Below are positions 33,415-47,438 of a stretch of DNA of 64,000 nt, piece by piece. The notes under the pieces were generated by a model. That model was not told where the DNA came from. It ran no database searches and saw only the letters and a program-made list of their open reading frames with translations. The translations under genes and the position numbers were made by a program. Where the stretch lies: the NCBI GenBank assembly GCA_017642535.1, contig JAGCOW010000042.1, positions 64,777 through 128,776 on the forward strand, given 5' to 3'. Origin of the DNA: Bacteroidales bacterium. Its GTDB lineage: Bacteria > Bacteroidota > Bacteroidia > Bacteroidales > UBA1715. The stretch's first letter is position 1; the number at the start of each line of letters is the position of its first letter.

Positions 33415-33450
33415 GAAACAAAAAAAGGGAACAAATTACTGTTCCCTTTC
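33415..33450 (-). terminator. terminator of tRNA-Phe
   Basis: The minus strand reads gaaagggaac-agtaattt-gttccctttttt. Confidence 0.6.
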
Positions 33451-33451
33451 G

Positions 33452-33524: not shown

Positions 33525-33536
33525 GATTTGGTGTGG

Positions 33537-33544
33537 CAAAAGTA
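33537..33544 (-). promoter_or_regulatory. candidate -7 box (TACTTTTG) for tRNA-Phe
   Basis: The reverse complement of caaaagta matches TAnnTTTG, 13 nt upstream of the mature tRNA 5' end. Confidence 0.4.
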
Positions 33545-33581
33545 ATCATATTTTTTTATTCTCAAAATAATTCGGGGAATT

Positions 33582-34283
33582 TTATTCTTCAAGCCCCATT
33601 ATTTTCTTAAAGTTCTCTTTGTAAGTAAGTCCGATAGGAATCTCTTTTTCGCCTATCAGCAGCGCCCCAGATTTTATAGTATCTATTTTCTTTTTTGATA
33701 CTATAAAGGATTTATGCACGCGAATAAAATCGTTGGGAGGAAGTTTTGTCATTATGCCCTTAATGTTGGTGAGAGTAACAATACGTTTGTCGGTCGTAAC
33801 AATTTTTACATAATCTTTCAATCCTTCTATATAAAGTATGTCGTTGAGCATAATCTTTATATCTTGATAATCAGCACGTACAAAAATATGACTTGTAGTA
33901 TTAGTTGATGTTTCGGTAAGTTTTCGCAACAACATCTTGTCCTTGATTTTTTCCACAGCGACACTGAATCGTTTGGGAGAGATTGGTTTCATCAGGTAAT
34001 CCACGGCGCCAACGTTGAAGCCCTCAACAGCATATTGATTATAGGCGGTAGTGAACACTACCAATGGCGGATTCTTTAGCGTCTTCAGCAACTGCATCCC
34101 CGACATACCAGGCATAAGAACATCGAGAAACAACACATCGACCGCTTCCTTGCCAAGTAACACAATAACTTCTTCCGCACTCTTACACACTCCTACCAGT
34201 TGAAGTTCCTCACTGTGAGACACATATAATTCCATAACCTCACGAGCCAATGGCTCATCATCTACTATCACACACCGTATCAT
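33582..34283 (-). CDS. LytTR-family two-component response regulator
   Basis: MIRCVIVDDEPLAREVM...LDVLMPGMSG (receiver domain) plus a C-terminal LytTR domain (IFVRADYQDIKIMLNDILYIEGLKDYVKI). Confidence 0.85.
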   Translation of the reverse strand: MIRCVIVDDEPLAREVMELYVSHSEELQLVGVCKSAEEVIVLLGKEAVDVLFLDVLMPGMSGMQLLKTLKNPPLVVFTTAYNQYAVEGFNVGAVDYLMKPISPKRFSVAVEKIKDKMLLRKLTETSTNTTSHIFVRADYQDIKIMLNDILYIEGLKDYVKIVTTDKRIVTLTNIKGIMTKLPPNDFIRVHKSFIVSKKKIDTIKSGALLIGEKEIPIGLTYKENFKKIMGLEE

Positions 34284-35311
34284 ACGTTTATTTTTAATGT
34301 TACACTGTACAACGATTCCGTTTCAGAGATTTGAAGCGAATGCTTTGTACCATATATTATTTGAAGCCGCGACTTCACATTCTGAATACCTATTCCGTGT
34401 ACCGAATCTTTTGACGAATTTTCCCTCTTAAACACTTCATTCTGAATGTGAAAGACTATTTCATTTAAGTTTACACCAATGTTAATGGATATATTTACGT
34501 TTCCTTCGTCATTCTTTCCATGTTTGAACGCATTTTCAACAAAAGGAATCAATATCATCGGTGCAATTTTTATTTTCTCTTTTGTCGTCCAATTTTCCTC
34601 GAAATTCACAACGCTCTCAGACGACAGACGAAGTTTTTGTGTGTTCACATAATCGTGAAGATATTTAATCTCATTCTCAATATCCACGTAATCCTTGACA
34701 CTATCGTAAGTGCTGTAACGAAGAAGGTCGGACAACGTGAGGATGGCATTGGGCAAATCGTCGGACTTCTTCAATGCCAGCGAATAAAGACTATTCATAG
34801 CATTGAAAAGAAAATGCGGACTAAGTTGCGATTTCAGAAGTTGCAAATTGGATTCGGCATGCCGCTCCTCCAACTCTTGCATTAACCGCTCTCGTTTTAC
34901 TCCCTGAATCGAGTAACTGAGTACGCCACTTGCCGCTAGTGATACGAAGAAAAGAATGAATCGAACCACTATCTTTGTCTTCCCTTGTATAAAGACAGTT
35001 GACGGATTCGTGGAATGTACCATATCCATCAACCTCTCTTGAAGTGGAGCCAAAAGCCAGAAAATGAAAAAAAACAATACACCTAACGCAAGCAACATTA
35101 AAAAATAAGCCCCGTAACGTCCCCTAGCAAAAAGAACGGGAAGAACCACTTCCAAGTGAAGGTAAAAGATGATTATCGGAGCCACATAAAGCGTGGTATG
35201 AAAACAAAAAAGACTCAAACTAAACGCATTTATAACGAATAGATGAGGTACAACTATCAAAACACACCACGACACGAGGTGTATCAGTATATTTTTTGCT
35301 TCTTTCTGCAT
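34280..35311 (-). CDS. LytS/YehU-type sensor histidine kinase
   Basis: N-terminal TM helices are followed by LKSQLSPHFLFNAMNSLYSLA (His_kinase motif). A 4-nt overlap links it to the response regulator gene. Confidence 0.8.
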   Translation of the reverse strand: MQKEAKNILIHLVSWCVLIVVPHLFVINAFSLSLFCFHTTLYVAPIIIFYLHLEVVLPVLFARGRYGAYFLMLLALGVLFFFIFWLLAPLQERLMDMVHSTNPSTVFIQGKTKIVVRFILFFVSLAASGVLSYSIQGVKRERLMQELEERHAESNLQLLKSQLSPHFLFNAMNSLYSLALKKSDDLPNAILTLSDLLRYSTYDSVKDYVDIENEIKYLHDYVNTQKLRLSSESVVNFEENWTTKEKIKIAPMILIPFVENAFKHGKNDEGNVNISINIGVNLNEIVFHIQNEVFKRENSSKDSVHGIGIQNVKSRLQIIYGTKHSLQISETESLYSVTLKINV

Positions 35312-35459
35312 TGTCTCAATTGAATTTCAAAGGTAGCGAATCCCCCAAAATGAGTTTTTTTTCTATACCAAATAGTAAATTTCATAGACGAAAAACGATA
35401 TTGCACACTGTACGAACGGAATTTCTTTTTTTTAATGTTTTTCTAGGTTAAAAAATCAA

Positions 35460-35467
35460 TATCTTTG
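35460..35467 (+). promoter_or_regulatory. candidate -7 box (TATCTTTG)
   Basis: Matches TAnnTTTG, 25 nt upstream of ATG 35492. Confidence 0.35.
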
Positions 35468-35491
35468 CAAATATATTGAAACTCATTTCAA

Positions 35492-36463
35492 ATGGATTGC
35501 AAAGCAGAATTTGAAAAATCAAGCGAAAAGGCGATAATGGTCGTGGGCGACATTATGCTCGACTCCTACATTTGGGGCAGCGTTGACCGTATTTCGCCCG
35601 AAGCGCCCGTGCCGGTGGTGTCGGTTGAAACGACAGAGGACCGTCTTGGTGGTGCGGCAAATGTGGTGAAAAACATTGCCTCGCTTGGCATGAAACCTAT
35701 CCTGTGCAGCGTGGTTGGCAACGATGAGGCAGGTCACAAGTTTTTCGACATTCTTAAACGTCGGAATATCTCGTCAAATTATTGTGTGGTTGCCGACGAA
35801 CGAAAAACCACGGTGAAAACACGTGTAATTTGTGGCAAACAACAAATGCTCCGCGTTGATACGGAACAAACCGACGTGATTGGCGAAGAGATATTCAAAA
35901 AGTTGCAAACTTGCATTCGCACTGCGATTTCAGAACAAAAAATATCCGCTATCATCTTGCAGGATTACGACAAAGGGGTGTTTTCCAAAGAATTGATAGA
36001 TTTTGTGGTTGCCGAAGCGAAAAAACAGAGCATTCCCGTCTTGGTTGACCCGAAAAAACGGAATTTCAATAATTTCAAAAATGTGTCGTTGTTTAAGCCG
36101 AACTTCAAGGAATTTACCGAAGGTATCGGAAAATCGTGCCGCAAAGACGACAGCGAATCGTTGTTCGCTTTGGCAAAAGAATTTATGACGGCACAAAACA
36201 TTGATACAATGATGGTTACGCTTTCGGAACATGGAATTTTCATTGCCGACAAAAACCGCTATGTAAAACTGCCGACGCAAGTTCGCCACGTTGCCGATGT
36301 TTCTGGAGCTGGCGATACGGTAATTAGCACTGCGGCAGTATGTTACGTGCTCGGATTCCCGATGGAGGAAGTTGCGCGCATTTCGAACATCGCGGGTGGA
36401 ATCGTGTGCGAACAACCAGGTGTGGTTACCATTGAAAAAGATCAATTGTTGAAACACATATAA
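35492..36463 (+). CDS. D-glycero-beta-D-manno-heptose-7-phosphate kinase (RfaE domain I / PfkB family)
   Basis: IMVVGDIMLDSYIWGSVDRISPEAPVPVV...GGAANV...GAGDT. Confidence 0.8.
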   Translation: MDCKAEFEKSSEKAIMVVGDIMLDSYIWGSVDRISPEAPVPVVSVETTEDRLGGAANVVKNIASLGMKPILCSVVGNDEAGHKFFDILKRRNISSNYCVVADERKTTVKTRVICGKQQMLRVDTEQTDVIGEEIFKKLQTCIRTAISEQKISAIILQDYDKGVFSKELIDFVVAEAKKQSIPVLVDPKKRNFNNFKNVSLFKPNFKEFTEGIGKSCRKDDSESLFALAKEFMTAQNIDTMMVTLSEHGIFIADKNRYVKLPTQVRHVADVSGAGDTVISTAAVCYVLGFPMEEVARISNIAGGIVCEQPGVVTIEKDQLLKHI

Positions 36464-36547
36464 ATAATAGAGTTAAGAATTAAAAATTAAGAGTTATGGA
36501 TGGCGAAGCGTGACGAAGCCACCAAAAACAAAATTAAAACATATAAA

Positions 36548-37717
36548 ATGGCTGCAATTTCAATTTTAGTTGTTGACGATGAACGTGCGATTCGCAATTC
36601 GCTCAAAGAAATTCTTGAATATGAGAACTATAAGGTGGAAGTTGCCGAAAACGGTGCCGACGGTCTTTCCAAAGTTCAAAACGGGAAATTCGACCTCATC
36701 TTTTCCGACATAAAAATGCCCGAAATGGACGGTATTGCCTTCCTTGAAGCAGTTTTGAAAGAACGTGGCGATGTGCCTGTCATTATGATGTCGGGGCATG
36801 CTGAAATTGATACGGCGGTGAAATCCATCAAATTAGGCGCTTACGATTTCATTTCCAAACCATTGGATATGAATAGAATCCTCGTTACAGTACGTAATGC
36901 GTTGGATAAGAAGAACTTGGTTCAGGAAACGGCTATTCTTAAAAAGAAAGTCGGTTCAAAATATCAGATGATTGGTAATTCTGAGCCATTGCAGAAAATT
37001 CAGGAAATCATTGGCAAAGTTGCTCCAACCGACGCCCGTGTGCTGATTACCGGCCCGAACGGTTCTGGTAAAGAATTGGTTGCACGTGCGCTTCACGACC
37101 AAAGCAATCGAAAAAATGCACCATTTGTTGAAGTAAACTGTGCGGCAATTCCTTCGGAACTTATTGAGAGTGAACTATTTGGGCACGAAAAAGGTTCGTT
37201 CACCTCGGCAATAAAAACACGTATCGGTAAATTCGAGCAAGCCGACGGTGGCACGTTGTTCCTTGACGAAATCGGCGATATGAGCTTGTCGGCACAAGCA
37301 AAGGTGCTTCGTGCCTTGCAAGAACAAAAAATTACTCGTGTAGGCAGCGACAAAGATATTTCGGTTGACGTGCGTGTGCTTGCCGCTACCAACAAGAATA
37401 TGAAGGAGGAAATAGAAGCGAAACGTTTCCGTGAAGATTTGTATCACCGTTTGAGCGTGATTCTCATAAAAGTGCCGTCGCTTGCCGAGCGAATCGACGA
37501 CATTCCGCTGCTTGCCGAACATTTTGTAAACGAGTCGTGCAAGGAAATGGGTGTTCCGAAAAAGGAAATTTCCGCCGATGCCGTAAAAAAATTACAAACC
37601 TATCCGTGGACGGGAAACATTCGTGAATTCCGCAACGTGATTGAACGCTTGGTAATTCTAAGCGGAAAAACCATCGAGGCCTCCGACGTGGAACTTTACA
37701 CGCAACCGTTGGGATAA
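36548..37717 (+). CDS. sigma-54-dependent response regulator (REC + AAA+), no C-terminal HTH
   Basis: MAAISILVVDDERAIR (REC domain), GPNGSGKELVARALH (Walker A), ESELFGHEKGSFTSA (GAFTGA-loop variant) and GNIREFRNVIERL. The protein ends ~20 aa after the AAA+ lid. An alternative ATG lies at 36500. Confidence 0.8.
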   Translation: MAAISILVVDDERAIRNSLKEILEYENYKVEVAENGADGLSKVQNGKFDLIFSDIKMPEMDGIAFLEAVLKERGDVPVIMMSGHAEIDTAVKSIKLGAYDFISKPLDMNRILVTVRNALDKKNLVQETAILKKKVGSKYQMIGNSEPLQKIQEIIGKVAPTDARVLITGPNGSGKELVARALHDQSNRKNAPFVEVNCAAIPSELIESELFGHEKGSFTSAIKTRIGKFEQADGGTLFLDEIGDMSLSAQAKVLRALQEQKITRVGSDKDISVDVRVLAATNKNMKEEIEAKRFREDLYHRLSVILIKVPSLAERIDDIPLLAEHFVNESCKEMGVPKKEISADAVKKLQTYPWTGNIREFRNVIERLVILSGKTIEASDVELYTQPLG

Positions 37718-37740
37718 GATTAAAGATTTAGTCGCATTGT

Positions 37741-37826
37741 CTATTCTATCCCTTTATTTATCCAATCTTCGATTAGTTGAAGATTTTTGTAGTCAAGAAT
37801 CATATTGGAGTGGTCGAACGACAGGA
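37741..37826 (-). pseudogene. 3'-terminal fragment (last ~27 codons + stop) of a paralog of the cytochrome-c lipoprotein gene 43790-44470
   Basis: 80/86 nt are identical to 43790-43875. It encodes ...LSFDHSNMILDYKNLQLIEDWINKGIE*. Homology stops upstream and there is no start codon. Confidence 0.8.
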
Positions 37827-37871
37827 CGCTATAAATGCTGTTTTGCAGGCATAAAAAAGGGACTCCCTTAT

Positions 37872-37921
37872 GGAAATCCCTAAAACTTGGTATTCTCACG
37901 AGTGGAAATCGTCAAAAAAAG
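37872..37921 (-). repeat. 50-nt variant of the AATCCC motif family, copy 4
   Basis: ggaaatccctaaaacttggtattctcacgagtggaaatcgtcaaaaaaag is 45/50 identical to 29055-29104. Confidence 0.7.
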
Positions 37922-37945
37922 ATTGGAGGAAAAGAATTTCAATCT

Positions 37946-37980
37946 TGTCGGAATGTGTAAATTTTTGATAGATTCCGACA
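37946..37980. promoter_or_regulatory. 9-bp inverted repeat upstream of the ATPase/RloB pair
   Basis: tgtcggaat-N17-attccgaca. Confidence 0.3.
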
Positions 37981-38050
37981 GAATCAAAGCACAATATGTT
38001 AAAATATGAGTTTTTTCCTCAATTTAATACACGACATTGAATTTTATTTT

Positions 38051-38058
38051 TATATTTG
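38051..38058 (+). promoter_or_regulatory. candidate -7 box (TATATTTG)
   Basis: Matches TAnnTTTG, 40 nt upstream of ATG 38098. Confidence 0.35.
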
Positions 38059-38097
38059 CATAAAAAACAGACAAGTAAATATTTAAGGTAAGTAGTT

Positions 38098-39363
38098 ATG
38101 TTGCTTGAATTTACGGTAGGAAATTATCGCTCCTTTTATGAAAAAAAGACATTTTCAATGTTGGCACAAGGACTAAGCGAAGAAGCAAAAGACAATGTGA
38201 CAAGTTTGTTATCATACGACATTCTTAAAACAATGGCCGTATATGGAGCGAACTCCAGTGGTAAGTCAAACTTGATTAATGCCATTCAAACTATGAAATC
38301 ATGTGTACTTTCTTCGGTAAAACTCAATCCCAATGATTCCCTGTATTACGAGCCATTTTTGCTTGTAAAAGACAATAACAAGCCCACTTTGTTTGAGATG
38401 ACTTTTTTGAAGAATGATTTTTGTTACCGTTATGGGTTCTCATATACGCAAAATACAATTGTTGACGAGTGGTTGTGTCGTCGGACGACTAAACGTTCAA
38501 AAGAGCAAGCTCTTTTTATTCGCAATAGTGAAGGTATCGCTTTCGAGGATAACAAGTTCCCTGAAGGCATCGGATTAGAATCGAAAGTAAACGATAATCG
38601 TTTGTTCTTATCGCTGTGCGCACAACTGGGCGGTGAGGTTTCAAATAAAGTTATTTCGTGGTTTGAATCCGATTTTAACGTTGTATCGGGACTAAATAAC
38701 CAAGAATATCGTAGTTTCTCAAAAAAACTTTTTCATCAAAAAAAAGATGCGAGCAACGAGGCAATGACTTTGTTCAAGAAACTTCAATTAGGATTTGGTG
38801 AAATATCAACGTATGAAAAAAAATTAAAACTTCCAGAAGATACTCCGAAAGATCTTGTATCATTTTTCACAAAAATTGTAGCAGAAAAAGACATTGAAAT
38901 TGAATCTGTTCATCTGTTGTATGACAAAAACGGAAAAAAATGTGGCACGATAAAATTCCCCTTTGATGACAAGGAATCTTCGGGTACAAGAAAACTTTTT
39001 GATATGTCGGGACCTATATTCGACGCATTGGAAAAAGGTTTGGTTTTAGTAATTGATGAATTGGATGCAAAAATGCACCCGTTGATTTCACAGGAAATCA
39101 TTCGTCTGTTTAATAATCCTAAAACAAATCCGAAAAATGCTCAACTGATTTTCACCACACATGACACTCATTTGTTGTCAACAAAAATGTTGAGACGTGA
39201 CCAAATTTGGTTTACCGAAAAAAACAATGCGGAGCAAACCGATTTATATTGTTTGACAGACATTGTATTGCCAGATGGTACAAAACCGAGAAACGATGCC
39301 AATTATGAGAAAAACTATATTGCTGGACGATATGGTGCAATCCCATATATTGTAAACGATTAA
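38098..39363 (+). CDS. AAA_21/ABC-like ATPase (AbiLi-like)
   Basis: FTVGNYRSF..., the Walker A motif GANSSGKSNL, the Walker B motif LVIDELDAKMHP, and FTTHDTHLL. The C-terminal GRYGAIPYI is typical of this defence-associated ATPase family. Confidence 0.8.
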   Translation: MLLEFTVGNYRSFYEKKTFSMLAQGLSEEAKDNVTSLLSYDILKTMAVYGANSSGKSNLINAIQTMKSCVLSSVKLNPNDSLYYEPFLLVKDNNKPTLFEMTFLKNDFCYRYGFSYTQNTIVDEWLCRRTTKRSKEQALFIRNSEGIAFEDNKFPEGIGLESKVNDNRLFLSLCAQLGGEVSNKVISWFESDFNVVSGLNNQEYRSFSKKLFHQKKDASNEAMTLFKKLQLGFGEISTYEKKLKLPEDTPKDLVSFFTKIVAEKDIEIESVHLLYDKNGKKCGTIKFPFDDKESSGTRKLFDMSGPIFDALEKGLVLVIDELDAKMHPLISQEIIRLFNNPKTNPKNAQLIFTTHDTHLLSTKMLRRDQIWFTEKNNAEQTDLYCLTDIVLPDGTKPRNDANYEKNYIAGRYGAIPYIVND

Positions 39364-39375
39364 AAAGCCTGAAAT

Positions 39376-40086
39376 ATGCCAGCAAATAGAATAAAGTTGG
39401 AGCCCGCACTTGAGCGCCGTTATGCAAGACAAGCACAAAAACGCAAACAACGCCAGATTGTGTGTAAAATTCTTATTGTATGCGAGGGAACAAAAACAGA
39501 GCCAAATTATTTCAATGCATTTCTCTCATACAATCAAGGTACCGTGGTTTACGACATTGACGTGAAAGGCTTGGGTGATAACACTCTAAATGTGGTTGAC
39601 AAAGCAATTGAACTAAAAAACAAAGGCGAATACGACCGTGTATGGGCGGTTTTTGACAAAGATTCATTCTCCAACGATAAGTTTAATAGTGCTATTATAA
39701 AAGCTGAAAGTAACAATGTCTGTTGTGCATGGAGCAATGAGGCATTTGAATTATGGTATCTTTATCATTTTGTTAATAGGACAACAGGAATGAATAGAGA
39801 GGAGTACAAAGTTGCCATTTCTAACGCTGTTAATAATTCACCAAAGTACAAGTTGAAGAAAATGTATGTATATGATAAGGGGGCTAAAGACAACTACCGT
39901 ATTATGACAACATATGGTTCAATGGAAAACGCAATAAAGTTTGCAGAAGCAAAAAGTATGGAATATACGGATAAACGGTATGCCACGCATAATCCATGTA
40001 CTATGGTATTCAAATTAGTGCGACAACTGATTGGAAAAGACGAAGAGTTGAATGAGGAACTGAAAAAGAAAGTGGAACATAGGTAA
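39376..40086 (+). CDS. RloB-like (Toprim-like) protein (AbiLii-like)
   Basis: KILIVCEGTKTEPNYFNAF is the hallmark N-terminal motif of RloB-family proteins. The ORF starts 12 nt after the ATPase gene. Confidence 0.8.
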   Translation: MPANRIKLEPALERRYARQAQKRKQRQIVCKILIVCEGTKTEPNYFNAFLSYNQGTVVYDIDVKGLGDNTLNVVDKAIELKNKGEYDRVWAVFDKDSFSNDKFNSAIIKAESNNVCCAWSNEAFELWYLYHFVNRTTGMNREEYKVAISNAVNNSPKYKLKKMYVYDKGAKDNYRIMTTYGSMENAIKFAEAKSMEYTDKRYATHNPCTMVFKLVRQLIGKDEELNEELKKKVEHR

Positions 40087-40474
40087 CTGCACCCCAACCT
40101 ATGGGACCGTCAACGGAAACCATTGTGGGGCGTATGTTCTTTGAAATTTCTTTTACCGTTGTTCCCACTATTCTGCTTCCGATACGTTCCGTAACACGCA
40201 ATAAAACCGTTCCCGTACCCTCTGTAAAGCGAACAATTACGCCAGTGCCTGTTGCAGTATTTGATGTAATGAAATCCGCTCCGCCCTCAATGCTCCACTC
40301 ATACGTAGAGTGAGCACCAGGTCTTAAAATCCCGTATGGCAGATAATCAACCGACGAGGAAGATTCCCTGCAATCTATCGACGAACCTGTTATTTCGAGG
40401 TTTTGGGCATACGAACCGAGCACCGCCAAAAGTAGTGCGATGATTGTTATTCCTATTTTATTTTTATACCTCAT
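40010..40474 (-). CDS. hypothetical secreted protein (154 aa)
   Basis: The signal peptide is MRYKNKIGITIIALLLAVLGSYAQ. The 3' end overlaps the convergent RloB gene by 77 nt. Confidence 0.5.
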   Translation of the reverse strand: MRYKNKIGITIIALLLAVLGSYAQNLEITGSSIDCRESSSSVDYLPYGILRPGAHSTYEWSIEGGADFITSNTATGTGVIVRFTEGTGTVLLRVTERIGSRIVGTTVKEISKNIRPTMVSVDGPIGWGAVTYVPLSFSVPHSTLRLFQSVVALI

Positions 40475-40490
40475 AGTTTTTATTTTTTAT

Positions 40491-40520
40491 TGTAGGGGTA
40501 AATAATCATTTGTCCCTACA
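40491..40520. repeat. TGTAGGG...CCCTACA hairpin
   Basis: tgtaggg-N16-ccctaca, located between the BNR gene stop and the next gene start. Confidence 0.5.
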
Positions 40521-40523
40521 TTG

Positions 40524-42950
40524 TTATTGAACGATAACCTTCTTAACTTGTTGATTGCAATGCACAAAATACGTACCCGACGGCAAAGAAGCATTGGTTT
40601 GCACTTTTTGCCCTGCTACGTTGTATATTGCATAATCATCACAATTACATTCTATTTTTCCATTTAGTACACGGATTTGAATATCATCCGAAGAAACAGC
40701 GTCTATAGCACTACCACCGTTGTTTACTATAAATTCTTGACTCTGAACTATCTCATAGACCTCTTCATCCTCTGGGATTACTTTTATGACATAGTTTGCT
40801 TCTATGCCTTTAGGTAATGTTATAACAAAAGGTTCTCCCGATTTTATTTCTATGTTCTCACTTACCACGATAGAAGCACCATTTACTTGTTCTACTAAAA
40901 CCTTTGCGGTATAGTTTTGATTTTCTGCATTGCTTATGGAGCATTGGATTGTGCCGTTTTCTTGTTTTTCAAAAGACGATTCAGATGTTTTTATTTTGTG
41001 AATACCTTTGTACACTCGAAGATATCGTTCTTTTTCGCAAGCATATATAACATTAGGGTTATTCGATTTTGCAAGTAATTCAGCATTGGGGGATAGAAAA
41101 GGAACACCTTCCCATGTTTCCCCATTATCATAACTAATTCTTGCTGTATCATTTAAATAAAGAATGTTTTCTGATAATTTTGGTAAGAATAGTATTCCAT
41201 TTCCATAGTCAATAATTTTTTGATAGTAATTTGCAGAATGTGTATTATTGGGATTATCAACCATTGGGTCTGCAACCTTTTTGAAAGTTAAATCCTTTTC
41301 ACACGTATAAATATAGCCATACCACCAATCTGTTAATATCCAACGGTCATTATAAAATTCTATATTTATACGTGGCATATTCCCTTTTATATCCGAATCT
41401 GTTACTACAGAAAATGTCATTGTGCTTTTCTCCGGGTCTATGTTTGCCACTAATATAGTCTTTGAATTATCGCTTTGAAACAGCCCAAGATTTTCATTAG
41501 CAAAAGCACCATTTAAGGTTCCACCATATTCATAGTATGTCCATGTTGTATTTTGGACTCTTTTCCATGTGTCACCTCCATTTTGAGTTTGATATAATTC
41601 TGTATCATCGTACACATATCCAAATTTATCTGAAAAAAATCGAAGGTGTTTATATTTAGAGCCATAAATATCCATTTTTTTCCCTTTCCAAGATTCACCA
41701 CCATCGTAAGATATAAATAAACTATCATTACCTGTCATAAAAATAATGTCATCTGAAAATATTTGCATTTCACATAATGTAGTGTTAAAATCCTTGTATG
41801 TCCATGTATTGCCACCATCCATAGTATGGAATAACCTACCTTTTTTAGCCCCAATGACAAATATTTCTTGTGAGGACTTAACATACAAGGCTTTACCATC
41901 CATAGTACCGTTATATACATATTTTGACACATTTTCATTCATAGTCGCCAACACAGCATCAACAGGTGGGGTGTAATGGTCTTGGGTGTTTTGCCATATA
42001 CGCATACTATCTGTAGAAACGATATTCTTATTATTTGAAGAATATCCATCTTGCACTGATGCAAACACTTTTCCTTCGCCAAGGTCATACATAAAAATAG
42101 GTTCATCATAGTATGTCATCCCAGAACTTTTACTATTAAACAAATTTATTATTCTACAACCTTCCAATGTCGTATTACAACTGCTTCGTACAGTTAATAA
42201 AAGTTGTCCGTTGTTGAACTGAAAAAGGAATTGTGGTGTAATATCCAAACTATTTTTTTCCCAAGTCACACCTCCGTCTTTTGTTACACAATATCCATAT
42301 CTTGTAAACATATAGCCATAATTTTCGTTTACAAATGCGATAAAACTCTTCGAAGAAGATGTCACAGATTGAGTTAATACATTATCTGTGAGTTTTTGCC
42401 ATCGTTCCCCCGAATTAAAACTTGAATAGATATATAATTCCTTTTCACTGTTATTAAAAAACACAGCGAAAACAGTTTTTTCATCTCTCCAAGTCATATC
42501 TAACATTTTATAGTTATCTCCAATAGGAATATCCGATTTATTCCATATATGACCACCATCGGTAGTGAATAAAAGCACATTTTTCTCTTTATTATCCTCT
42601 ATATATGATGAGTGAAAGACACCATGCAAAGAATCCGAAGAGAAACTGAATTTTGATGTTTGAACATTATGCATTGCTTTTTGGGTAAAGATATTTTCGT
42701 CTATGTCAAACGCATCGTAAACAGGTATCCACGTTTTCCCTGTATCAATAGTTTCCGCAAGCATTCCCTCTTCTGTTGCAATAACTATATGTCCATTTTT
42801 GGTATGAGCAGTTAAAAATGTTGTTGTACGAACAGAACTACCTAATCTCATAGATTTATTAGTAATTTCTCGCCACTCGTACTCAAATGGTTGTGAGTAG
42901 AGATAACACGATGTTATTATCGTGAAGAATAAAACAATAATCTTCTTCAT
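40524..42950 (-). CDS. BNR/Asp-box repeat beta-propeller protein with T9SS C-terminal sorting domain (808 aa)
   Basis: At least 8 SxDxGxTW-type boxes are present (TIDTGKTW, TTDGGHIW, NSGERW, TKDGGVTW, TMDGGNTW, SYDGGESW, TQNGGDTW, SYDNGETW). An N-terminal signal peptide is present. The tail is IYNVAGQKVQTNASLPSGTYFVHCNQQVKKVIVQ. Confidence 0.8.
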   Translation of the reverse strand: MKKIIVLFFTIITSCYLYSQPFEYEWREITNKSMRLGSSVRTTTFLTAHTKNGHIVIATEEGMLAETIDTGKTWIPVYDAFDIDENIFTQKAMHNVQTSKFSFSSDSLHGVFHSSYIEDNKEKNVLLFTTDGGHIWNKSDIPIGDNYKMLDMTWRDEKTVFAVFFNNSEKELYIYSSFNSGERWQKLTDNVLTQSVTSSSKSFIAFVNENYGYMFTRYGYCVTKDGGVTWEKNSLDITPQFLFQFNNGQLLLTVRSSCNTTLEGCRIINLFNSKSSGMTYYDEPIFMYDLGEGKVFASVQDGYSSNNKNIVSTDSMRIWQNTQDHYTPPVDAVLATMNENVSKYVYNGTMDGKALYVKSSQEIFVIGAKKGRLFHTMDGGNTWTYKDFNTTLCEMQIFSDDIIFMTGNDSLFISYDGGESWKGKKMDIYGSKYKHLRFFSDKFGYVYDDTELYQTQNGGDTWKRVQNTTWTYYEYGGTLNGAFANENLGLFQSDNSKTILVANIDPEKSTMTFSVVTDSDIKGNMPRINIEFYNDRWILTDWWYGYIYTCEKDLTFKKVADPMVDNPNNTHSANYYQKIIDYGNGILFLPKLSENILYLNDTARISYDNGETWEGVPFLSPNAELLAKSNNPNVIYACEKERYLRVYKGIHKIKTSESSFEKQENGTIQCSISNAENQNYTAKVLVEQVNGASIVVSENIEIKSGEPFVITLPKGIEANYVIKVIPEDEEVYEIVQSQEFIVNNGGSAIDAVSSDDIQIRVLNGKIECNCDDYAIYNVAGQKVQTNASLPSGTYFVHCNQQVKKVIVQ

Positions 42951-42954
42951 TGCA

Positions 42955-43500
42955 TTAATTATTTGGGTTACTTTGACAATTTGTTTGCTCTAATATCAGT
43001 TCTGCCAACCTGTCAATGTCGACATTATTGACAACGCCGTCTTTATTTATATCGGCATTATCAAGAAAACAACTATTAAGCGTATAGGTTGTTTCGCCAC
43101 AATTAGTCTGAATTGTTATCGTAAACCCTCCATCAGAAGAAGGTTGTAATGTTGCGCCCTCTTGTACATATCCTTTCAGAGCGTCTAAATCTTCCAAAGA
43201 ATAACCGGGCTTACCATCTATTACAACCAAATCACCATCTTCGCACGTTGTGGTATCACAATTTTCCACCTCAAAGGTAATGCTTGCGGTAAGAGAGTCA
43301 CATTGATTTGCTACGGTATATTGATATTCATACGTTCCACACTTACCGTCATTCGGCTCGCTTATTTTAGTCAATGTGCCTTCTACATCACTTATTGGGT
43401 GAATTATCTGTTCTCCCATTGTATTCCAATCGGAATATTGGATTTTTGGCTTAAAATCTATAGAAAAGTCTTTCTGTGAATAGGTAGTTTTCTGCAACAT
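42955..43500 (-). CDS. hypothetical Cys-rich protein with dockerin-like Ca-binding repeat
   Basis: DNADINKDGVVNNVDIDRLAELIL resembles a dockerin/EF-hand repeat. The ATG at 43500 is preceded by a TATTTTTG box (43527-43534, minus strand). The longer GTG-initiated form extending to 43596 would add a hydrophobic N-terminus. Confidence 0.55.
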   Translation of the reverse strand: MLQKTTYSQKDFSIDFKPKIQYSDWNTMGEQIIHPISDVEGTLTKISEPNDGKCGTYEYQYTVANQCDSLTASITFEVENCDTTTCEDGDLVVIDGKPGYSLEDLDALKGYVQEGATLQPSSDGGFTITIQTNCGETTYTLNSCFLDNADINKDGVVNNVDIDRLAELILEQTNCQSNPNN

Positions 43501-43789
43501 AATTTTTCTTGTTAAAATTCTTGTTTCAAAAATACGTAATACGAATGAAAAAAGAAAAAAAATCAGGAGAAAATTATGTAAGTGTATAAAAGACACTATT
43601 TTAACAAACTGAATATCAGTAAAATTTATTTAAAGTTTTTGTAGATATAATTGAATACCCCCCAAGAAGAATCAGAAAATTCACAAGATTAGCAAAAATG
43701 TTTTGAAAATAAAAAGTCTTAGGTTATCGAGAAAATCTCAATAGGTGTTTGTGGAGTTACACAAAAAAAATCGGCAATTCGCCACAATT

Positions 43790-44470
43790 TTATTCTATCC
43801 CTTTATTTATCCAATCTTCGATTAACTGAAGATTTTTGTAGTCAAGTATCATGTTGGAGTGGTCGAACGATAGGGTGCCATCGGTGCCAGTAACGACCTT
43901 GTACATAAAACTGTTTGCCGCATCGCCGGGGACAACACGCACGGAGCCGTCGGTCGCCTTTGACGAAGCCACGTTAACCAATGCGTCGTAACTATTTCCT
44001 TCGGTGAGATACAAACCAGCCGCGGCAGATTTTCCTCCGCCATGACACGCCGCACACGTTGGCGTGAATATCGCATTTTGTATGGCGTTGAACATATCGG
44101 CACGGATTGCGCCTGCCTCCAAAACTATCTCATCGCTGTTGTCGGCTGAAATATCGCTTTTGTAGAATGTAGCCACACGTTCACGAAGACGATTTATCAC
44201 GCAGATTTCTATAGTCTTCACCGAACTGCCAATACCTCTTAACACAATTGTGTCGGCACCTACGGAAATGTTCTTTGATATGTCGGCATATTTGTTGTCG
44301 CCGAAACCGGCAACCACCACATTGTAACCCGACGACCAATTTTCAATGCCCGAAACCGAGGTGACCACAGTGACAGTCCGTCCCGTATTTTCCACCTTGA
44401 GGTCTTCAATTATATCACCGTCGTCGCAGGCAGAAAGGGCTAAAAGACTTATAATCAATATCTTCTTCAT
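43790..44470 (-). CDS. lipoprotein with c-type cytochrome motif
   Basis: MKKILIISLLALSACDDG contains a lipobox. FTPTCAACHGGGKSAAAGLYL contains a CxxCH motif. The start was moved from 44500 to 44470 because the longer form includes hairpin copy D. Confidence 0.7.
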   Translation of the reverse strand: MKKILIISLLALSACDDGDIIEDLKVENTGRTVTVVTSVSGIENWSSGYNVVVAGFGDNKYADISKNISVGADTIVLRGIGSSVKTIEICVINRLRERVATFYKSDISADNSDEIVLEAGAIRADMFNAIQNAIFTPTCAACHGGGKSAAAGLYLTEGNSYDALVNVASSKATDGSVRVVPGDAANSFMYKVVTGTDGTLSFDHSNMILDYKNLQLIEDWINKGIE

Positions 44471-44491
44471 AAATCCTTTTTTTGCAGTCAG

Positions 44492-44513
44492 GAGACGCAC
44501 GACCGTGCGTCTC
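44492..44513. repeat. GAGACGCAC...GTGCGTCTC hairpin, copy D (degenerate outer arm)
   Basis: gagacgcac-gacc-gtgcgtctc, followed by tac aaat as in the other copies. Confidence 0.7.
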
Positions 44514-44553
44514 TACAAATCCAAATTCTTAATTTTCATTTTTAATTCTTAAT

Positions 44554-45795
44554 TCAAAACGTGTATTGTAACATTACCGTCGCGCTGTGGACAGTCATTC
44601 CCAAATCGTCGTTGTCGCGGTCGATTTGTGTTTCGTGTCCCGTGCGGCCAGTGTATTGGTACATTGCCTGCAATTTCAGGTTGCAACCCGGCATAAAATA
44701 ATTAAATCCGATTGCTGGCATATTCAGCATTCCTTTGGTGTCCAGTCCGTTACGTTCATAAAGGTCATAACGCAATGCCGCCTGCAGTTTGTTGGTCACG
44801 AAATAACCTGCCTGTGCGTAACCGCCGATGAAATTATACATTTCGCTGATTTTCTGGCGTTCCGTAAAGCCAATGTGCATAAAGTAACATTCGGTTGCCA
44901 GATACAATTTATGGTACAAGTACGCGAATTCAAAACCGGCACGGAAATCGTTGGTGCTTTCGTTCTCACTCTCAACGTTCAGCGACGACGAAACGCCAAT
45001 CATCCATTTGTTTTCGTCAAGACGGTTTGCAGAACCTTGAATCATAGGCATGGCTCCTTTGGGCGAGAATGTGATTCGTCCTGCATACAATAACGACGGA
45101 ATATGCCAATCGTCGCTGAATGTCCGTCCTGCCGCATTCGTGCCTATTCCCGTTCCGTTGAAGACGCCCAATTCGTAACCGAATTTGCCAGCAATGGAGC
45201 CGTGCATTTCCGCACCCAAGTCAAAACCCAATCCTATGCTTGGCGTGACGGCGTTCAACGCATACGGCAGAATCACTGTGGCTGTCAGCGAGTTTGGAAG
45301 CACGGGAAGCAATGTTTCGCCCAACGTGGTGAGATATGCGTGGGTGAATGGTGTTTTAAACTTTCCTATGCGAAACGCAATGTTCTTTTTCGTTTGAACG
45401 TCGAACCACGCTTGTTGGAGCAGTGCTCCGCCACTCGAAGCCGCATTTATCGACAAGTTGAAGGTGACTTTTCCGAACGCTTTCCCCGTGAAACCAAGCA
45501 CGGCATAAGGAACGGCAAAGCCGCTGTTTGCCACGTTGTCCTGATTGTACGCCTTGTCAAGACCTTCGTCATCGTAATAATTGAATTTTGCACACGTCTG
45601 CACCAACATAAATGGTTTGAACACGAAATCGCCAGTGCCGCTGCTGATTTTCAGACCTGTCTTTCCACTCATCGAAACTATGCCGTTTTCAAAATCATCG
45701 TCGTGAGTCGTTGCTTGTGCATTAGATTCCTGATTTTCCTGTGCCAATCCAAACAACGGCAACAGAGCCATAACAAAACAAAATATCTTTTTCAT
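44554..45795 (-). CDS. outer-membrane porin (porin O/P-like)
   Basis: The signal peptide is MKKIFCFVMALLPLFGLAQ. IGFNYFMPGCNLKLQAMYQY is present, and the C-terminus ends in MLQYTF (terminal Phe). Confidence 0.65.
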   Translation of the reverse strand: MKKIFCFVMALLPLFGLAQENQESNAQATTHDDDFENGIVSMSGKTGLKISSGTGDFVFKPFMLVQTCAKFNYYDDEGLDKAYNQDNVANSGFAVPYAVLGFTGKAFGKVTFNLSINAASSGGALLQQAWFDVQTKKNIAFRIGKFKTPFTHAYLTTLGETLLPVLPNSLTATVILPYALNAVTPSIGLGFDLGAEMHGSIAGKFGYELGVFNGTGIGTNAAGRTFSDDWHIPSLLYAGRITFSPKGAMPMIQGSANRLDENKWMIGVSSSLNVESENESTNDFRAGFEFAYLYHKLYLATECYFMHIGFTERQKISEMYNFIGGYAQAGYFVTNKLQAALRYDLYERNGLDTKGMLNMPAIGFNYFMPGCNLKLQAMYQYTGRTGHETQIDRDNDDLGMTVHSATVMLQYTF

Positions 45796-45850
45796 CTTTT
45801 TTACAATTAACACTCTTTTATTTCTTAATTTTTACTTGTAATTCGTAATT

Positions 45851-47344
45851 CTATAACGAGTTAAGGAACGCCACCAAAGCCGTTCTGTCGTTTTTGTTCA
45901 TATTTTTGAATAGATTTTTCGACGCTTCGCCCTCGCCGCCGTGCCACATAATGGCTTCAACGAAATTCCGTGCCCGTCCGTCGTGCAAAAAGTAGGTATG
46001 ACCATTGACTTTCTCCTGCAAACCGACACCCCATAATGGAGTCGTGCGCCATTCGTTGCCTCTTGCCAACCCGCTCACAAAATTGTCGTTCAAGCCAACG
46101 CCCATAATTTCCGAGCCCATATCGTGGAGCAAGAAGTCGGAATACGGATGAATTGTCTGATTCCCGAGCCACGGCAGACGTGTTCCGTTCAGCAGAACCG
46201 AACCACCCACCTTGGTGTGAAGCGTGGTCACGTGGCAAAGATGGCATTTTGCCTGATAAAACATTTGTTCTCCTCGTTTAACAATGGAATCGTTCACGTT
46301 TCTTCGTGCCGGCACGCCAAGCGACTGCATATACAAATCAACGTCTTCCATATCTTGGGTTGATACATCTAACTGATTGTATGATAGACCCATAGCACTT
46401 CCTTGCGACATTTGCAGTTGTCCTTCGCAGATTTCTTCCGGAAAACGGCTGTTTGTTGAGCCCATATCGCTTGAAAAGCCCAATTCCACGGTCAAATCCA
46501 AGTGGTGTGCCTTGTTTCCCGACAAACCCACGGAACGCCGTCCACGTTCGGTAATGTAGTTGCACCGCCCGCTGATGCCATATTCGGGATAGTTGCTTTT
46601 TGCAGCCAATGCCTCAATTTCAGCAGGGTCGATTGCCATAATTTGTCCCATTCCCACGTGGCGGAGCGGTATTCTCACCGTGCAGAACAAATCTTCGGGC
46701 TGAAGAATGATGGAATCGCCTTTCACGCCGTCCCAAAACTTTTTGTACCATTCGGTTATGGTAAATTCTGGATAACAGAGTTCGTAAGGTTCGCCGTCGG
46801 GGAAGGTGAACGACTGAAAATGCCAGTCAACTTTGACTTTCCCTTCGGGTTGAACGCCGTAGATTGCCTGGTCGTGGACCACACGACCATAGTCTTGGAA
46901 GAACACGCCGTTTTTGCGGGTAATGTAAATCAGCATAGCCGAAAAACCATATTGCCCCGAGCCGTAGGTAGGATTTCCTTTGTCGTCAACACCATTGGGA
47001 GTCCACACACCGGGTTTTGTACGACCAGCGTTGCGGTGACAACTACCGCAAGAATAGCCGGCATACACGGGTCCAAGACCGCCACCGTAGCCGTTGCTGC
47101 TTGTTCGGGCATCGTCATACAATGCATCACCACGGTTAAAGCGCCGTTCGTAGGAGCCAGAAAGCCATTCGGCAGGCGAATCGAACGCCTTTGATGAATT
47201 CATAAAAATTGTTGAAGTTCCAGCCGACAATGCGTAGCCCTTCGGAACCACCACATCGTCCATATCGATGCCTTCCTTTGTGCACGATTGAAGCATTCCC
47301 GAAAAAAGGATTATGCAACAACCTAAATAACCAATGCCTTTCAT
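45851..47344 (-). CDS. di-haem cytochrome-c peroxidase-like / DUF1111-type putative thiol oxidoreductase lipoprotein
   Basis: The lipobox is LFSGMLQSCTKEG. Two CxxCH motifs are present (CGSCHRN and CHLCHV). The size and pattern match the imelysin-associated di-haem proteins. Confidence 0.75.
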   Translation of the reverse strand: MKGIGYLGCCIILFSGMLQSCTKEGIDMDDVVVPKGYALSAGTSTIFMNSSKAFDSPAEWLSGSYERRFNRGDALYDDARTSSNGYGGGLGPVYAGYSCGSCHRNAGRTKPGVWTPNGVDDKGNPTYGSGQYGFSAMLIYITRKNGVFFQDYGRVVHDQAIYGVQPEGKVKVDWHFQSFTFPDGEPYELCYPEFTITEWYKKFWDGVKGDSIILQPEDLFCTVRIPLRHVGMGQIMAIDPAEIEALAAKSNYPEYGISGRCNYITERGRRSVGLSGNKAHHLDLTVELGFSSDMGSTNSRFPEEICEGQLQMSQGSAMGLSYNQLDVSTQDMEDVDLYMQSLGVPARRNVNDSIVKRGEQMFYQAKCHLCHVTTLHTKVGGSVLLNGTRLPWLGNQTIHPYSDFLLHDMGSEIMGVGLNDNFVSGLARGNEWRTTPLWGVGLQEKVNGHTYFLHDGRARNFVEAIMWHGGEGEASKNLFKNMNKNDRTALVAFLNSL

Positions 47345-47404
47345 TTTCGCAAATGAGTGAAACTAAGTTCTTTTTTGCCCACAAAGAAAAAGAATCGGGG
47401 AAAG

Positions 47405-47438
47405 TGTACAATCCCTAAAAATGGGGATTTATAAGTGT
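47405..47438 (-). promoter_or_regulatory. AATCCC-N8-GGGATT motif, copy 5 (upstream of the di-haem gene)
   Basis: tgtacaatccctaaaaatggggatttataagtgt. The arms are at 47410-47415 and 47424-47429. Confidence 0.6.

What the first reader, a model, noticed from the sequence alone, without database searches (positions are those of the whole stretch)
37741..43875. 86-bp direct repeat (duplicated gene 3' end) brackets a low-GC ~6-kb segment carrying a defence pair and a BNR/dockerin-like operon
37741-37826 and 43790-43875 are 80/86 identical and in the same orientation. The right copy is the true 3' end of the cytochrome-c lipoprotein gene. The left copy is an orphan fragment encoding ...LSFDHSNMILDYKNLQLIEDWINKGIE* with its own stop (TAG versus TAA). 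Between them lie motif copy 4, the ATPase+RloB pair and three minus-strand genes. Spot counts of individual 60-nt lines give ~33-38% GC inside the segment (38281, 41401, 41641). The flanking core genes give ~53-57% (21601, 46021). A duplicated target-gene 3' end flanking foreign DNA is the classic footprint of site-specific integration. However, no integrase, transposase or tRNA is present inside the segment. This may therefore be a decayed island or the product of recombination between paralogous operons.
Basis: partly seen in the sequence, partly recalled or inferred. Interest (0 to 1): 0.6.

Follow-up and report, generated by a model that had tools for sequence, protein, structure and literature searches.

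The report
Orphan gene tail marks defence hotspot
The repeat is a real leftover copy of a gene's last 88 bases, marking a spot where an uncultured gut Bacteroidales bacterium has repeatedly swapped in foreign DNA, including an AbiL anti-phage pair, apparently by ordinary and illegitimate recombination rather than with an integrase.

Summary
The repeat is real: 79/86 identical at the stated coordinates, 83/91 when extended, about 1e-28 expected by chance. It brackets the lowest-GC 6 kb of the window (34.9% against 41%). The flanks are 42-49% GC, not 53-57%.

Related Bacteroidales MAGs show the ancestral state: the cytochrome-c lipoprotein gene (cytc) directly followed by a 385-aa gene, with one tail. 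That is the empty site. The same spot has at least five other fillings, mostly defence genes.

The left copy is a displaced allele of the cytc tail. All six differences from the right copy are synonymous, and all segregate among working alleles elsewhere.

The segment is a patchwork, not one element:
- an AbiL cassette (AbiLi plus AbiLii/RloB), which in another MAG lineage also abuts an orphan tail (about 230 bp);
- a 3.4-kb piece cut from a 1563aa-808aa-≥748aa locus, so two of the "three genes" are fragments;
- a roughly 170-bp operator-bearing piece;
- 342 bp of unique AT-rich DNA.

No variant carries an integrase. Junction positions differ between variants and cut through genes.

Best reading: an integrase-free hotspot built by homologous anchoring in cytc plus illegitimate joining (HFIR-like). 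It is a new member of a known kind.

The parts
37741..37832 (-). Orphan 3' fragment (last ~88-91 nt plus TAG stop) of a cytochrome-c lipoprotein gene, 'tail A' allele. It is the displaced end of the gene that occupied this site before the insertion.
   Evidence: It is 85/88 identical to the working tails of L009/L010 and 84/88 to the L013 orphan, but only 80/88 to the window's own right copy. A TAG stop occurs in the alleles followed by the 385-aa gene.
37833..37995 (-). Operator-bearing element of about 170 bp. It holds a copy of the palindromic motif found upstream of the 385-aa gene (palindrome about 37874-37893) and a terminator-like hairpin (37858-37881).
   Evidence: 96% identical to L006 17560-17726, where it also ends an island and is followed by 12 nt of cytc tail. 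Its motif matches the motif in the intergenic spacer between cytc and the 385-aa gene of L016 28/28. Hairpin. Repeat D5 with 29055-29107.
37996..40088 (+). AbiL defence cassette: ~100-bp upstream region, abiLi (ABC/AAA_21 ATPase, 38098-39363) and abiLii (RloB/TOPRIM-like, 39376-40086).
   Evidence: PADLOC AbiLi 2.3e-96 and AbiLii 1e-28. Pfam AAA_21 6.9e-29 and RloB 2.4e-41. 92.8% DNA identity to L012-14 with the same two end points. A 72% relative, L035, shares the same unit.
40089..43447 (-). Cargo fragment cut from another locus. It holds a 154-aa ORF (40010-40474, the N-terminal piece of a >=748-aa gene, whose last 25 codons read antisense into rloB), an intact 808-aa BNR/beta-propeller gene (40524-42950) and a 181-aa ORF (42955-43500, the C-terminal piece of a 1563-aa gene).
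   Evidence: The exact 808-aa protein also lies in a 1563aa-808aa->=748aa locus and, in L128, upstream of DHOR. Runs X6-X8 hold 40086/9-43447 at ~99% but neither AbiL nor 43448-43789, and their contigs run on into unlike DNA at both ends. Another cut point, 43280, is seen in L129-134. No Pfam, PADLOC or NCBIfam family matches the two fragments.
43448..43789 (-). 342 bp of AT-rich (26.6% GC) DNA of unknown origin between the cytc stop and the cargo fragment. A weak terminator-like hairpin lies at 43772-43784.
   Evidence: No match in any fetched locus. GC. Hairpin.
43790..43881 (-). Right repeat copy: the working 3' end (TAA stop) of the intact cytc lipoprotein gene (43790-44470).
   Evidence: 87/88 identical to the tail of L017. 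The gene is mosaic: 44475-44030 is 95-99% like L003/L005, and the last ~240 nt are 96-100% like L011/L016/L017.
43790..47434 (-). Conserved DHOR (di-haem oxidoreductase) - porin O/P - cytc lipoprotein operon with its upstream palindromic motif (47410-47429). It is the homologous anchor of the hotspot.
   Evidence: Pfam. 84-92% DNA identity to all related loci. Motif.
27802..29082 (-). The 385-aa (RidA/L-PSP-like) gene with its 123-bp upstream spacer. It is the ancestral downstream neighbour of cytc, now 8.66 kb away from the orphan.
   Evidence: 95.8% identical to L010 3558-4840. Homology stops exactly where the cytc stop codon lies in L010. The cytc->385 adjacency holds in L003/4, L009/10, L016 and L019-L033.
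29107..37721 (.). ROK ... tRNA-Phe ... PfkB - sigma-54 response-regulator block. It is a core syntenic block that now separates the orphan from the 385-aa gene.
   Evidence: 93% identical over 8,623 bp to L117, where it has different flanks.

Best explanation
The space just downstream of the conserved DHOR-porin-cytc operon is an integrase-free recombination hotspot in a group of uncultured herbivore-gut Bacteroidales.

Proposed mechanism (inferred): incoming DNA pairs homologously with the conserved operon, with crossovers in or near the heme-motif block of cytc. It therefore brings its own allele of the cytc tail. Its far end is joined illegitimately, as in homology-facilitated illegitimate recombination. 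The resident tail is pushed downstream and survives as an orphan. Later homologous exchanges between islands, plus further illegitimate joints, shuffle the modules.

The present 6-kb segment is the result: unique 342 bp | fragment of a surface-protein locus with one intact 808-aa BNR gene | AbiL cassette | ~170-bp operator/terminator piece | orphan tail.

The functional payload is the AbiL pair, an ABC-type ATPase (sensor) plus an RloB/TOPRIM-like nuclease (effector), which presumably gives abortive-infection-type phage defence. The orphan itself is a scar. It is probably not transcribed as a gene, because a terminator-like hairpin and in-frame stop codons lie upstream of it.

Shown here: the insertion, the empty sites, the allelic nature of the orphan, the mosaic make-up, the truncated genes, and the absence of a recombinase. 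Inferred: the enzymology of the joints, the route of DNA entry, and the defence activity.
For: 1. Empty sites. cytc is directly followed by the 385-aa gene in L009/L010, L016 and L003/4, and in all distant relatives L019-L033.
2. Same place, other fillings.
   - L012-14/18: 77/181/256-aa genes, then AbiL, then a ~230-bp orphan, then the 385-aa gene.
   - L006: SLFN-like gene, PDC-M62A/B, PDC-S09 NTase/HepT.
   - L005: PDC-S14.
   - L011/L017: a 516-aa gene.
3. The orphan is an allele, not a decayed copy. All 6 differences in the shared 84 nt are synonymous (P about 3e-5 if unconstrained), and each is a polymorphism seen in working alleles. The orphan is closest to L009/10 and the right copy to L017.
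4. The cytc gene is a recombinant, with breakpoints near 44475 and 44030 next to the conserved CxxCH block.
5. The distal joints differ and cut genes.
   - The orphan starts at -232 in L013 and at -91 in the window.
   - In L006 only 12 nt of tail remain, joined 55 nt inside a 516-aa gene that is intact in L017. That is an insertion-plus-deletion with a collinear left side.
   - The AbiL|cargo joint has at most 2 nt of microhomology and truncates a >=748-aa gene. The cargo|342-bp joint truncates a 1563-aa gene.
6. No recombinase lies in any variant or within 10 kb of flank. No match was found in plasmid or phage collections.
7. Precedent. HFIR was proposed for orphan 3' ends and immunity genes in T6SS and Rhs loci (PMC5361080). 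Core defence hotspots without identifiable mobile elements are described in P. aeruginosa and E. coli (PMC10250203, PMC10121019).
Against: - No event was observed directly. All comparators are metagenome contigs or MAGs.
- Gut Bacteroidales are not known to be naturally transformable (my own knowledge), so the entry route (conjugation, transduction, vesicles) is open.
- The AbiL cassette has the same two end points in the window and in L013: the start of its upstream region, and 2-3 nt after the rloB stop. That is tidier than random joints would suggest. It can be explained by shared ancestry of the joints plus homologous exchange, but this is not proven.
- The element|tail joint shares 9-12 nt with cytc, so its exact position is ambiguous.
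- The orphan's present left neighbour (the response-regulator gene) is not the ancestral one. An extra rearrangement placing the 8.6-kb ROK-RR block between the orphan and the 385-aa gene remains unexplained.
- Every exact-allele contig found carries the island, so no recent gain or loss was caught.
Confidence: 0.55

Rival explanations
1. Campbell-type integration without an integrase. A circular DNA molecule (for example a circularised transferred fragment) carrying about 90-230 bp of cytc tail recombined once, through RecA, with the chromosomal tail. This duplicated exactly the shared stretch on both sides of the insert.
For: The topology is the same as observed: a direct repeat of the homologous stretch, with the two copies being different alleles. 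The element|tail joint also exists in L006, as expected if it was the closing joint of a circle or a pre-existing donor structure. The longest identical run between the copies is 34 nt and overall identity is 91%, enough for rare RecA events.
Against: There is no evidence of a circular form. It does not explain the insertion-plus-deletion seen in L006 against L017, or the truncated genes at the inner joints, which need illegitimate joining anyway. The repeat is about 230 bp at only ~75% identity in L013, which is poor for RecA.
Confidence: 0.15
2. A decayed or satellite-like genomic island inserted by a site-specific integrase. The integrase either acts in trans from elsewhere in the genome or has since been lost. 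The repeat would be attL/attR within the cytc 3' end, as with e14 or phage 21 in icd.
For: A duplicated gene 3' end that restores the reading frame with synonymous differences is the classic picture. Empty sites exist. The segment has low GC.
Against: No recombinase lies in five different fillings of the site or in their flanks. Orphan length differs between variants (-232, -91, 12 nt). There is no common identical core bounded by allele-specific arms: the differences are scattered. The interior is a patchwork with gene fragments and module-specific distributions. Plasmid and phage collections give no match.
Confidence: 0.12
3. A remnant of a tandem duplication or a second, paralogous operon copy. 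The orphan would be the last piece of a second cytc whose upstream part (DHOR-porin-cytc 5') was deleted or overwritten by AbiL.
For: The 808-aa gene lies upstream of DHOR in L128, and a 62-173-bp remnant of its end lies there in L012/13. An order ...cytc-808-...-[DHOR-porin-]cytc is therefore conceivable. The four motif-headed units occur in cyclically rotated order in different genomes, which tandem duplication plus loss could produce.
Against: The two tails are distinct alleles with only synonymous differences, each matching other lineages better than each other, so this is not an in-situ duplication. No locus with two operon copies was found among about 30 related loci. L013 has the orphan without any 808 gene between the copies.
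Confidence: 0.08

Closest known systems
Core defence hotspots without identifiable mobile elements (P. aeruginosa cDHS1/2, PMC10250203; E. coli hotspot #37, PMC10121019)
   Same: Fixed core flanks, many alternative fillings rich in defence genes, low GC, often no recognisable mobility genes. Exchange through homologous flanks has been proposed.
   Different: This site is in uncultured rumen/gut Bacteroidales and lies at the 3' end of an iron/heme-type operon. Here the build-up left readable scars (orphan gene tail, truncated genes, insertion-plus-deletion) that point to illegitimate joining. Those papers left the mechanism open.
Orphan 3' ends and orphan immunity genes in Rhs, CDI and T6SS effector-immunity arrays, proposed to arise by homology-facilitated illegitimate recombination (PMC5361080 and references therein)
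   Same: A conserved 5' anchor, an incoming module that brings a new 3' part, and the old 3' part displaced downstream as an orphan. No integrase is involved.
   Different: The anchor gene here is a small CxxCH lipoprotein, not a polymorphic toxin. The cargo is a phage-defence pair plus unrelated fragments. Only one orphan is present, not an array.
Prophage-type integration into the 3' end of a protein gene with a substitute gene end (e14 and phage 21 in icd; from my own knowledge, not checked here)
   Same: Direct repeat of the gene's 3' end. The intact gene uses the incoming copy, the copies differ mostly by synonymous changes, and empty sites exist in relatives.
   Different: No integrase, no fixed crossover core, variable orphan length and a patchwork interior.
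AbiL (AbiLi/AbiLii) abortive-infection system, within the AAA15/21 ABC-ATPase + TOPRIM group that also holds PARIS, Gabija and OLD (PMC11464382)
   Same: A two-gene unit with strong PADLOC and Pfam matches. Walker A (GANSSGKSN) and Walker B-like (LVIDELD) motifs in the ATPase, and E...DxD-type acidic motifs in RloB, are visible in the sequence.
   Different: About 76% or less identical to anything in the metagenome scan outside this lineage. Activity is untested.

Membership tests
Integrase-mediated genomic island / prophage remnant at a gene 3' end | Site-specific recombinase gene in or next to the island | tested here: not met
   Pfam on all ORFs of the segment. Precomputed Pfam for five island variants and 10-kb flanks shows none.
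Integrase-mediated genomic island / prophage remnant at a gene 3' end | Direct repeats (attL/attR) with a common identical core at a fixed position in independent insertions | tested here: not met
   A repeat is present, but the orphan starts at -91 (window), -232 (L013) and 12 nt remain in L006. Differences are scattered over the repeat.
Integrase-mediated genomic island / prophage remnant at a gene 3' end | Unoccupied site with a single copy in relatives | tested here: met
   L009/L010, L016, L003/4, L019-L033.
Integrase-mediated genomic island / prophage remnant at a gene 3' end | Excision (circle, or repaired site) detectable | tested here: inconclusive
   No joint between the two copies appears in Logan contigs of the six DNA runs laid (X1-X3, X6-X8), and depth is equal across island and flanks. 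Contigs hide rare variants, and no raw-read runs were available.
AbiL defence system | AbiLi-type ABC/AAA_21 ATPase | tested here: met
   PADLOC AbiLi E=2.3e-96 and Pfam AAA_21 6.9e-29.
AbiL defence system | AbiLii / RloB partner encoded immediately downstream on the same strand | tested here: met
   PADLOC AbiLii 1e-28 and Pfam RloB 2.4e-41. There is a 12-nt gap between the genes.
AbiL defence system | Protection against phage (abortive infection) | not testable with these tools
   Needs expression in a culturable Bacteroides or E. coli host and phage challenge.
Core (integrase-free) defence hotspot | Same core flank, different gene content in related genomes, enriched in defence genes | tested here: met
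   Six occupancy states were found. They include AbiL, PDC-M62A/B, PDC-S09 with HepT, and PDC-S14.
HFIR-type displacement (orphan 3' ends) | Homologous left side, illegitimate right joint, with the recipient sequence beyond the joint retained or partly deleted | tested here: met
   L006 against L017: collinear through cytc, then 7.0 kb replaces 1.5 kb, with the right joint 55 nt inside a 516-aa gene. The orphans in the window and L013 begin inside cytc. Mosaic breakpoints lie in cytc.
HFIR-type displacement (orphan 3' ends) | Short or no microhomology at the illegitimate joints | tested here: inconclusive
   AbiL|cargo has at most 2 nt. The element|tail joint is ambiguous at 9-12 nt. Native DNA for the 1563-aa side was not retrievable.

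The most novel reading that the evidence does not exclude
The palindromic operator-like motif (AATCCCnnnTTTTAGGGATT) that heads each transcription unit of this regulon (M75, DHOR-porin-cytc, 385, 452) may also be a recombination site. It would delimit cassette-like units.

Observations that fit this reading:
- The four units occur in cyclically rotated order in different genomes.
- At least four unrelated upstream contexts of DHOR diverge within a few nucleotides of the palindrome.
- Both variable spots (M75|DHOR and cytc|385) lie directly 5' of a motif copy.
- A displaced motif copy (the ~170-bp element) closes the island in two lineages.

If so, the island and the orphan would be by-products of a motif-directed cassette-shuffling system with a trans-acting recombinase.
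Probability: 0.08. Interest if true: 0.7.

Novelty: new member of a known kind. Interest (0 to 1): 0.35.

Why it matters
Integrase-free 'core defence hotspots' are known, but how they are built is an open question. The P. aeruginosa paper says so explicitly. This locus keeps the scars of its own assembly:
- a displaced allelic gene tail;
- two truncated genes at module joints;
- an insertion-plus-deletion in a sister lineage;
- three-way mosaics between islands.

It is therefore a readable natural example that one-sided homologous plus illegitimate recombination can load defence genes into a core locus, in a phylum where this has hardly been looked at. It also corrects the annotation of the segment: only abiLi, abiLii and the 808-aa gene are intact. 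The practical value is modest, namely a new AbiL variant from rumen Bacteroidales and a marker (the cytc tail) for finding further islands.

Tried and rejected
- Searching the whole segment against plasmid and phage collections (blastn, distant mode) gave no match.
- The metagenome scan with the ATPase found 572 relatives, the best 76% identical, none next to cytc or the 385-aa gene. The pair is therefore not tied to this site in general.
- Exact-protein look-ups for the response regulator, cytc and the 808-aa protein found no island-free strain carrying the same alleles.
- Logan contigs showed no excision joint. The two 'skips' reported end in a 23-nt overlap at a REP-like palindrome (44486-44525), so I treat them as assembly artefacts.
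- Metatranscriptome contigs were too sparse to say whether AbiL or the orphan is transcribed.
- Rfam found only tRNA-Phe.
- The idea that the '181-aa' and '154-aa' ORFs match the same-sized ORFs in L006/L013 was rejected by BLASTP. They are fragments of larger genes.
- The idea that L011's convergent gene is the response regulator, which would have given a direct empty site for the present left flank, was rejected.
- The search with the 181-aa fragment did not return the 1563-aa parent, so the native DNA at the 43447 joint could not be read.

Full report
OBSERVATION.

The two sequences are there and in the same orientation. When extended they are 83/91, at 37742-37832 and 43791-43881, and this is the longest direct repeat in the window. 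A match of >=80/88 is expected about 1e-28 times by chance.

The right copy ends the intact 226-aa lipoprotein gene with a CxxCH heme motif (43790-44470, minus strand). That gene is the last of a DHOR (di-haem oxidoreductase) - porin O/P - cytc operon. The left copy encodes the same 27 residues with TAG instead of TAA and has stop codons just upstream in frame.

The 5,963 bp between the copies are 34.9% GC, the lowest of any 6-kb stretch in the window (range 0.349-0.439). There is no tRNA, integrase or transposase inside. The arrangement recurs in 6-7 independent metagenome contigs and in contigs of several public runs, with equal depth over segment and flanks. It is therefore not an assembly artefact.

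WHAT THE RELATIVES SHOW.

The organism is an uncultured Bacteroidales from ruminant and horse guts. The nearest species representatives are MAGs UBA3754, RGIG6246 and RGIG7965.

In distant relatives (L019-L033, including Parabacteroides) the order is 452aa - M75 imelysin - DHOR - porin - cytc - 385aa. The 385-aa RidA/L-PSP-like gene follows cytc directly. Closer relatives keep cytc -> 385 with a single tail: L009/L010, L016 and L003/4. That is the empty site.

The same place is filled differently elsewhere:
- L012-14/18 carry 77-, 181- and 256-aa genes, then RloB and the ATPase (92% and 96% amino-acid identity to the window's), then a ~230-bp orphan cytc fragment, then the normal spacer and the 385-aa gene.
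- L006 carries a Schlafen/AlbA-like gene, PDC-M62A/B, and a PDC-S09 nucleotidyltransferase with HepT.
- L005 carries PDC-S14.
- L011/L017 carry a 516-aa gene.

The space after cytc is therefore a hotspot, mostly for defence genes. None of these fillings or their flanks contains a recombinase.

THE ORPHAN IS A DISPLACED ALLELE.

The cytc tail has two protein alleles...ILDYKNLQLIEDWINKGIE ('tail A') and ...ITEEKYVKLIENWITKGIE ('tail B'). They are distributed independently of the rest of the protein.

Both window copies are of the first type, but they are different DNA alleles. The right copy is 87/88 identical to L017's tail. The orphan is 85/88 identical to L009/L010 and 84/88 to the L013 orphan. 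The two copies match each other at only 80/88.

In the shared 84 nt all six differences are synonymous (P about 3e-5 without constraint), and each is a polymorphism seen in working genes elsewhere. The TAG stop of the orphan is the form seen in alleles followed by the 385-aa gene; TAA goes with other downstream DNA.

The two copies therefore evolved as parts of working genes in different lineages and were then brought together. This excludes a local duplication followed by decay.

The cytc gene itself is mosaic. Positions 44475-44030 are 95-99% like L003/L005 but 66-79% like L006/L011/L016/L017. The rest of the operon and the last ~240 nt show the opposite pattern.

THE SEGMENT IS A PATCHWORK.

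(i) 37996-40088 is a compact AbiL cassette.
- PADLOC gives AbiLi 2.3e-96 and AbiLii 1e-28. Pfam gives AAA_21 and RloB.
- It starts about 100 bp upstream of the ATPase and ends 2-3 nt after the rloB stop. The end points are the same in L013.
- AbiL belongs to the ABC-ATPase + TOPRIM defence group that includes PARIS and Gabija (PMC11464382).

(ii) 40089-43447 is a piece of another locus.
- The exact 808-aa BNR protein also lies between a 1563-aa gene and a >=748-aa gene, with the same 4-nt and 49-nt spacings. In L128 it lies upstream of DHOR.
- Runs X6-X8 hold 40086/9-43447 at ~99% but not AbiL, and their contigs run on into unrelated DNA at both ends.
- The '181/213-aa dockerin-like' ORF is therefore the C-terminal fragment of the 1563-aa gene. 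The '154-aa' ORF is the N-terminal fragment of the >=748-aa gene, and its last 25 codons read antisense into rloB.
- Another cut of the same module, at 43280, occurs in L129-134.

(iii) 37833-37995 is a piece of about 170 bp that is 96% identical to the end of the L006 island. It carries a copy of the palindromic motif normally found upstream of the 385-aa gene, plus a terminator-like hairpin.

(iv) 43448-43789 is unique DNA with 26.6% GC.

HOW IT WAS MADE.

The distal joints differ between variants and cut genes.
- The orphan begins at -232 in L013 and at -91 in the window.
- L006 is collinear with L017 through cytc. Then 7.0 kb replaces 1.5 kb, and the right joint links 12 nt of cytc tail to a point 55 nt inside the 516-aa gene.

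A homologous left side with an illegitimate right joint, with or without loss of recipient DNA, is the signature of homology-facilitated illegitimate recombination. That process has been proposed for orphan 3' ends in Rhs and T6SS loci (PMC5361080).

Shared joints also occur: AbiL's left end in the window and L013, and the element|tail joint in the window and L006. These show that modules were later reshuffled between islands by homologous exchange.

I therefore read the repeat as a scar of one-sided homologous insertion into an integrase-free hotspot (confidence 0.55). The rivals are:
- RecA-mediated Campbell integration of a circle carrying the tail (0.15);
- an integrase acting in trans or since lost (0.12);
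- a remnant of a tandem operon duplication (0.08).

WHAT REMAINS UNEXPLAINED.

The orphan is no longer next to the 385-aa gene. An 8.6-kb core block lies between them (ROK ... tRNA-Phe ... PfkB - sigma-54 response regulator). It is 93% identical to L117, where it has other flanks. The break falls exactly between the orphan's stop codon and the spacer motif. A 53-nt repeat (29055-29107 and 37872-37924, 89%) brackets this block plus the orphan. I could not reconstruct that event.

No gain, loss or excision was caught in population data, but only contigs were available.

COMPARISON AND VERDICT.

The locus behaves like the 'core defence hotspots' of P. aeruginosa and E. coli, for which no mobilisation mode is known (PMC10250203, PMC10121019). 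It also behaves like orphan-forming displacement in toxin loci. It fails two defining tests for an integrase-type island: no recombinase, and no fixed core.

The defence pair is a clear AbiL member by sequence; its activity is untested. Overall this is a new member of a known kind. It is of moderate interest because the scars document how such a hotspot is loaded.

Noticed in passing
window 26305-26324, 27737-27756, 29057-29076, 37874-37893, 47410-47429 (minus strand); the same in L003, L005, L006, L010, L012/13, L016, L017, L128: A palindromic motif AATCCCnnnTTTTAGGGATT (often followed by GTACA) heads each unit of the M75 / DHOR-porin-cytc / 385 / 452 set, about 60-85 nt before the start codon. 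Homology between genomes with unrelated upstream neighbours starts within a few nt (up to ~10 nt of weak similarity) 5' of it. The four units occur in cyclically rotated order in different genomes. It is probably an operator, and possibly also a rearrangement boundary.
   Followed up: partly
window 40524-43447; L128 1-2666; L129 7281-9139; L130 1792-3662: The 'C-terminal fragment + 808-aa BNR gene' module occurs at 99.7-99.9% identity in at least four genomic contexts with different 5' cut points (43447, 43280, full 1563-aa gene, and upstream of DHOR). Neighbouring DHOR DNA is only 95% identical. Metagenome contigs often break inside the 808-aa gene (about 41046, 41410, 41422). This is a recently spreading module with no visible mobility gene.
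   Followed up: partly
window 44030-44475: The N-terminal and central part of the cytc lipoprotein has two alleles only 66-79% identical in DNA, while the flanking operon is 94-100% identical between the same genomes. This could reflect diversifying selection or allele exchange in a probably surface-exposed lipoprotein next to a porin.
   Followed up: partly
window 29055-29107 and 37872-37924: A 53-nt direct repeat (89%) holds the extended 385-type motif. It brackets the orphan plus the 8.6-kb ROK...response-regulator block. The break between orphan and spacer falls exactly at the orphan's stop codon. The event that placed a core block here is unexplained.
   Followed up: partly
window 3883-3910, 31343-31370, 44492-44518, 58157-58183: REP-like palindromes GTAGAGACG-N8-10-CGTCTCTAC lie in intergenic spacers, one of them between the porin and cytc genes. 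They cause spurious 23-nt 'joints' in Logan contigs.
   Followed up: no
window 36500-37717; L114-L123: The sigma-54 response regulator (with PfkB upstream) is 99-100% identical in protein across genomes whose surrounding synteny differs completely; at least four contexts were seen. The space just downstream of it is also variable (ORF6N, 409-aa and 814+496-aa genes in L115-L119).
   Followed up: no
L012 5838-6010; L013 37-209: A 62-173-bp remnant of the 3' end of the 808-aa gene and its downstream DNA lies between M75 and DHOR. This is a second variable spot, M75|DHOR, which in other loci holds DUF3990/DUF3791, AAA_14/DUF4143 or small TA-like ORFs.
   Followed up: partly
window 40491-40520: A 13-bp-stem hairpin lies between the 808-aa gene's stop and the start of the 154-aa fragment. 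It is conserved in the native locus spacing (49 nt).
   Followed up: no
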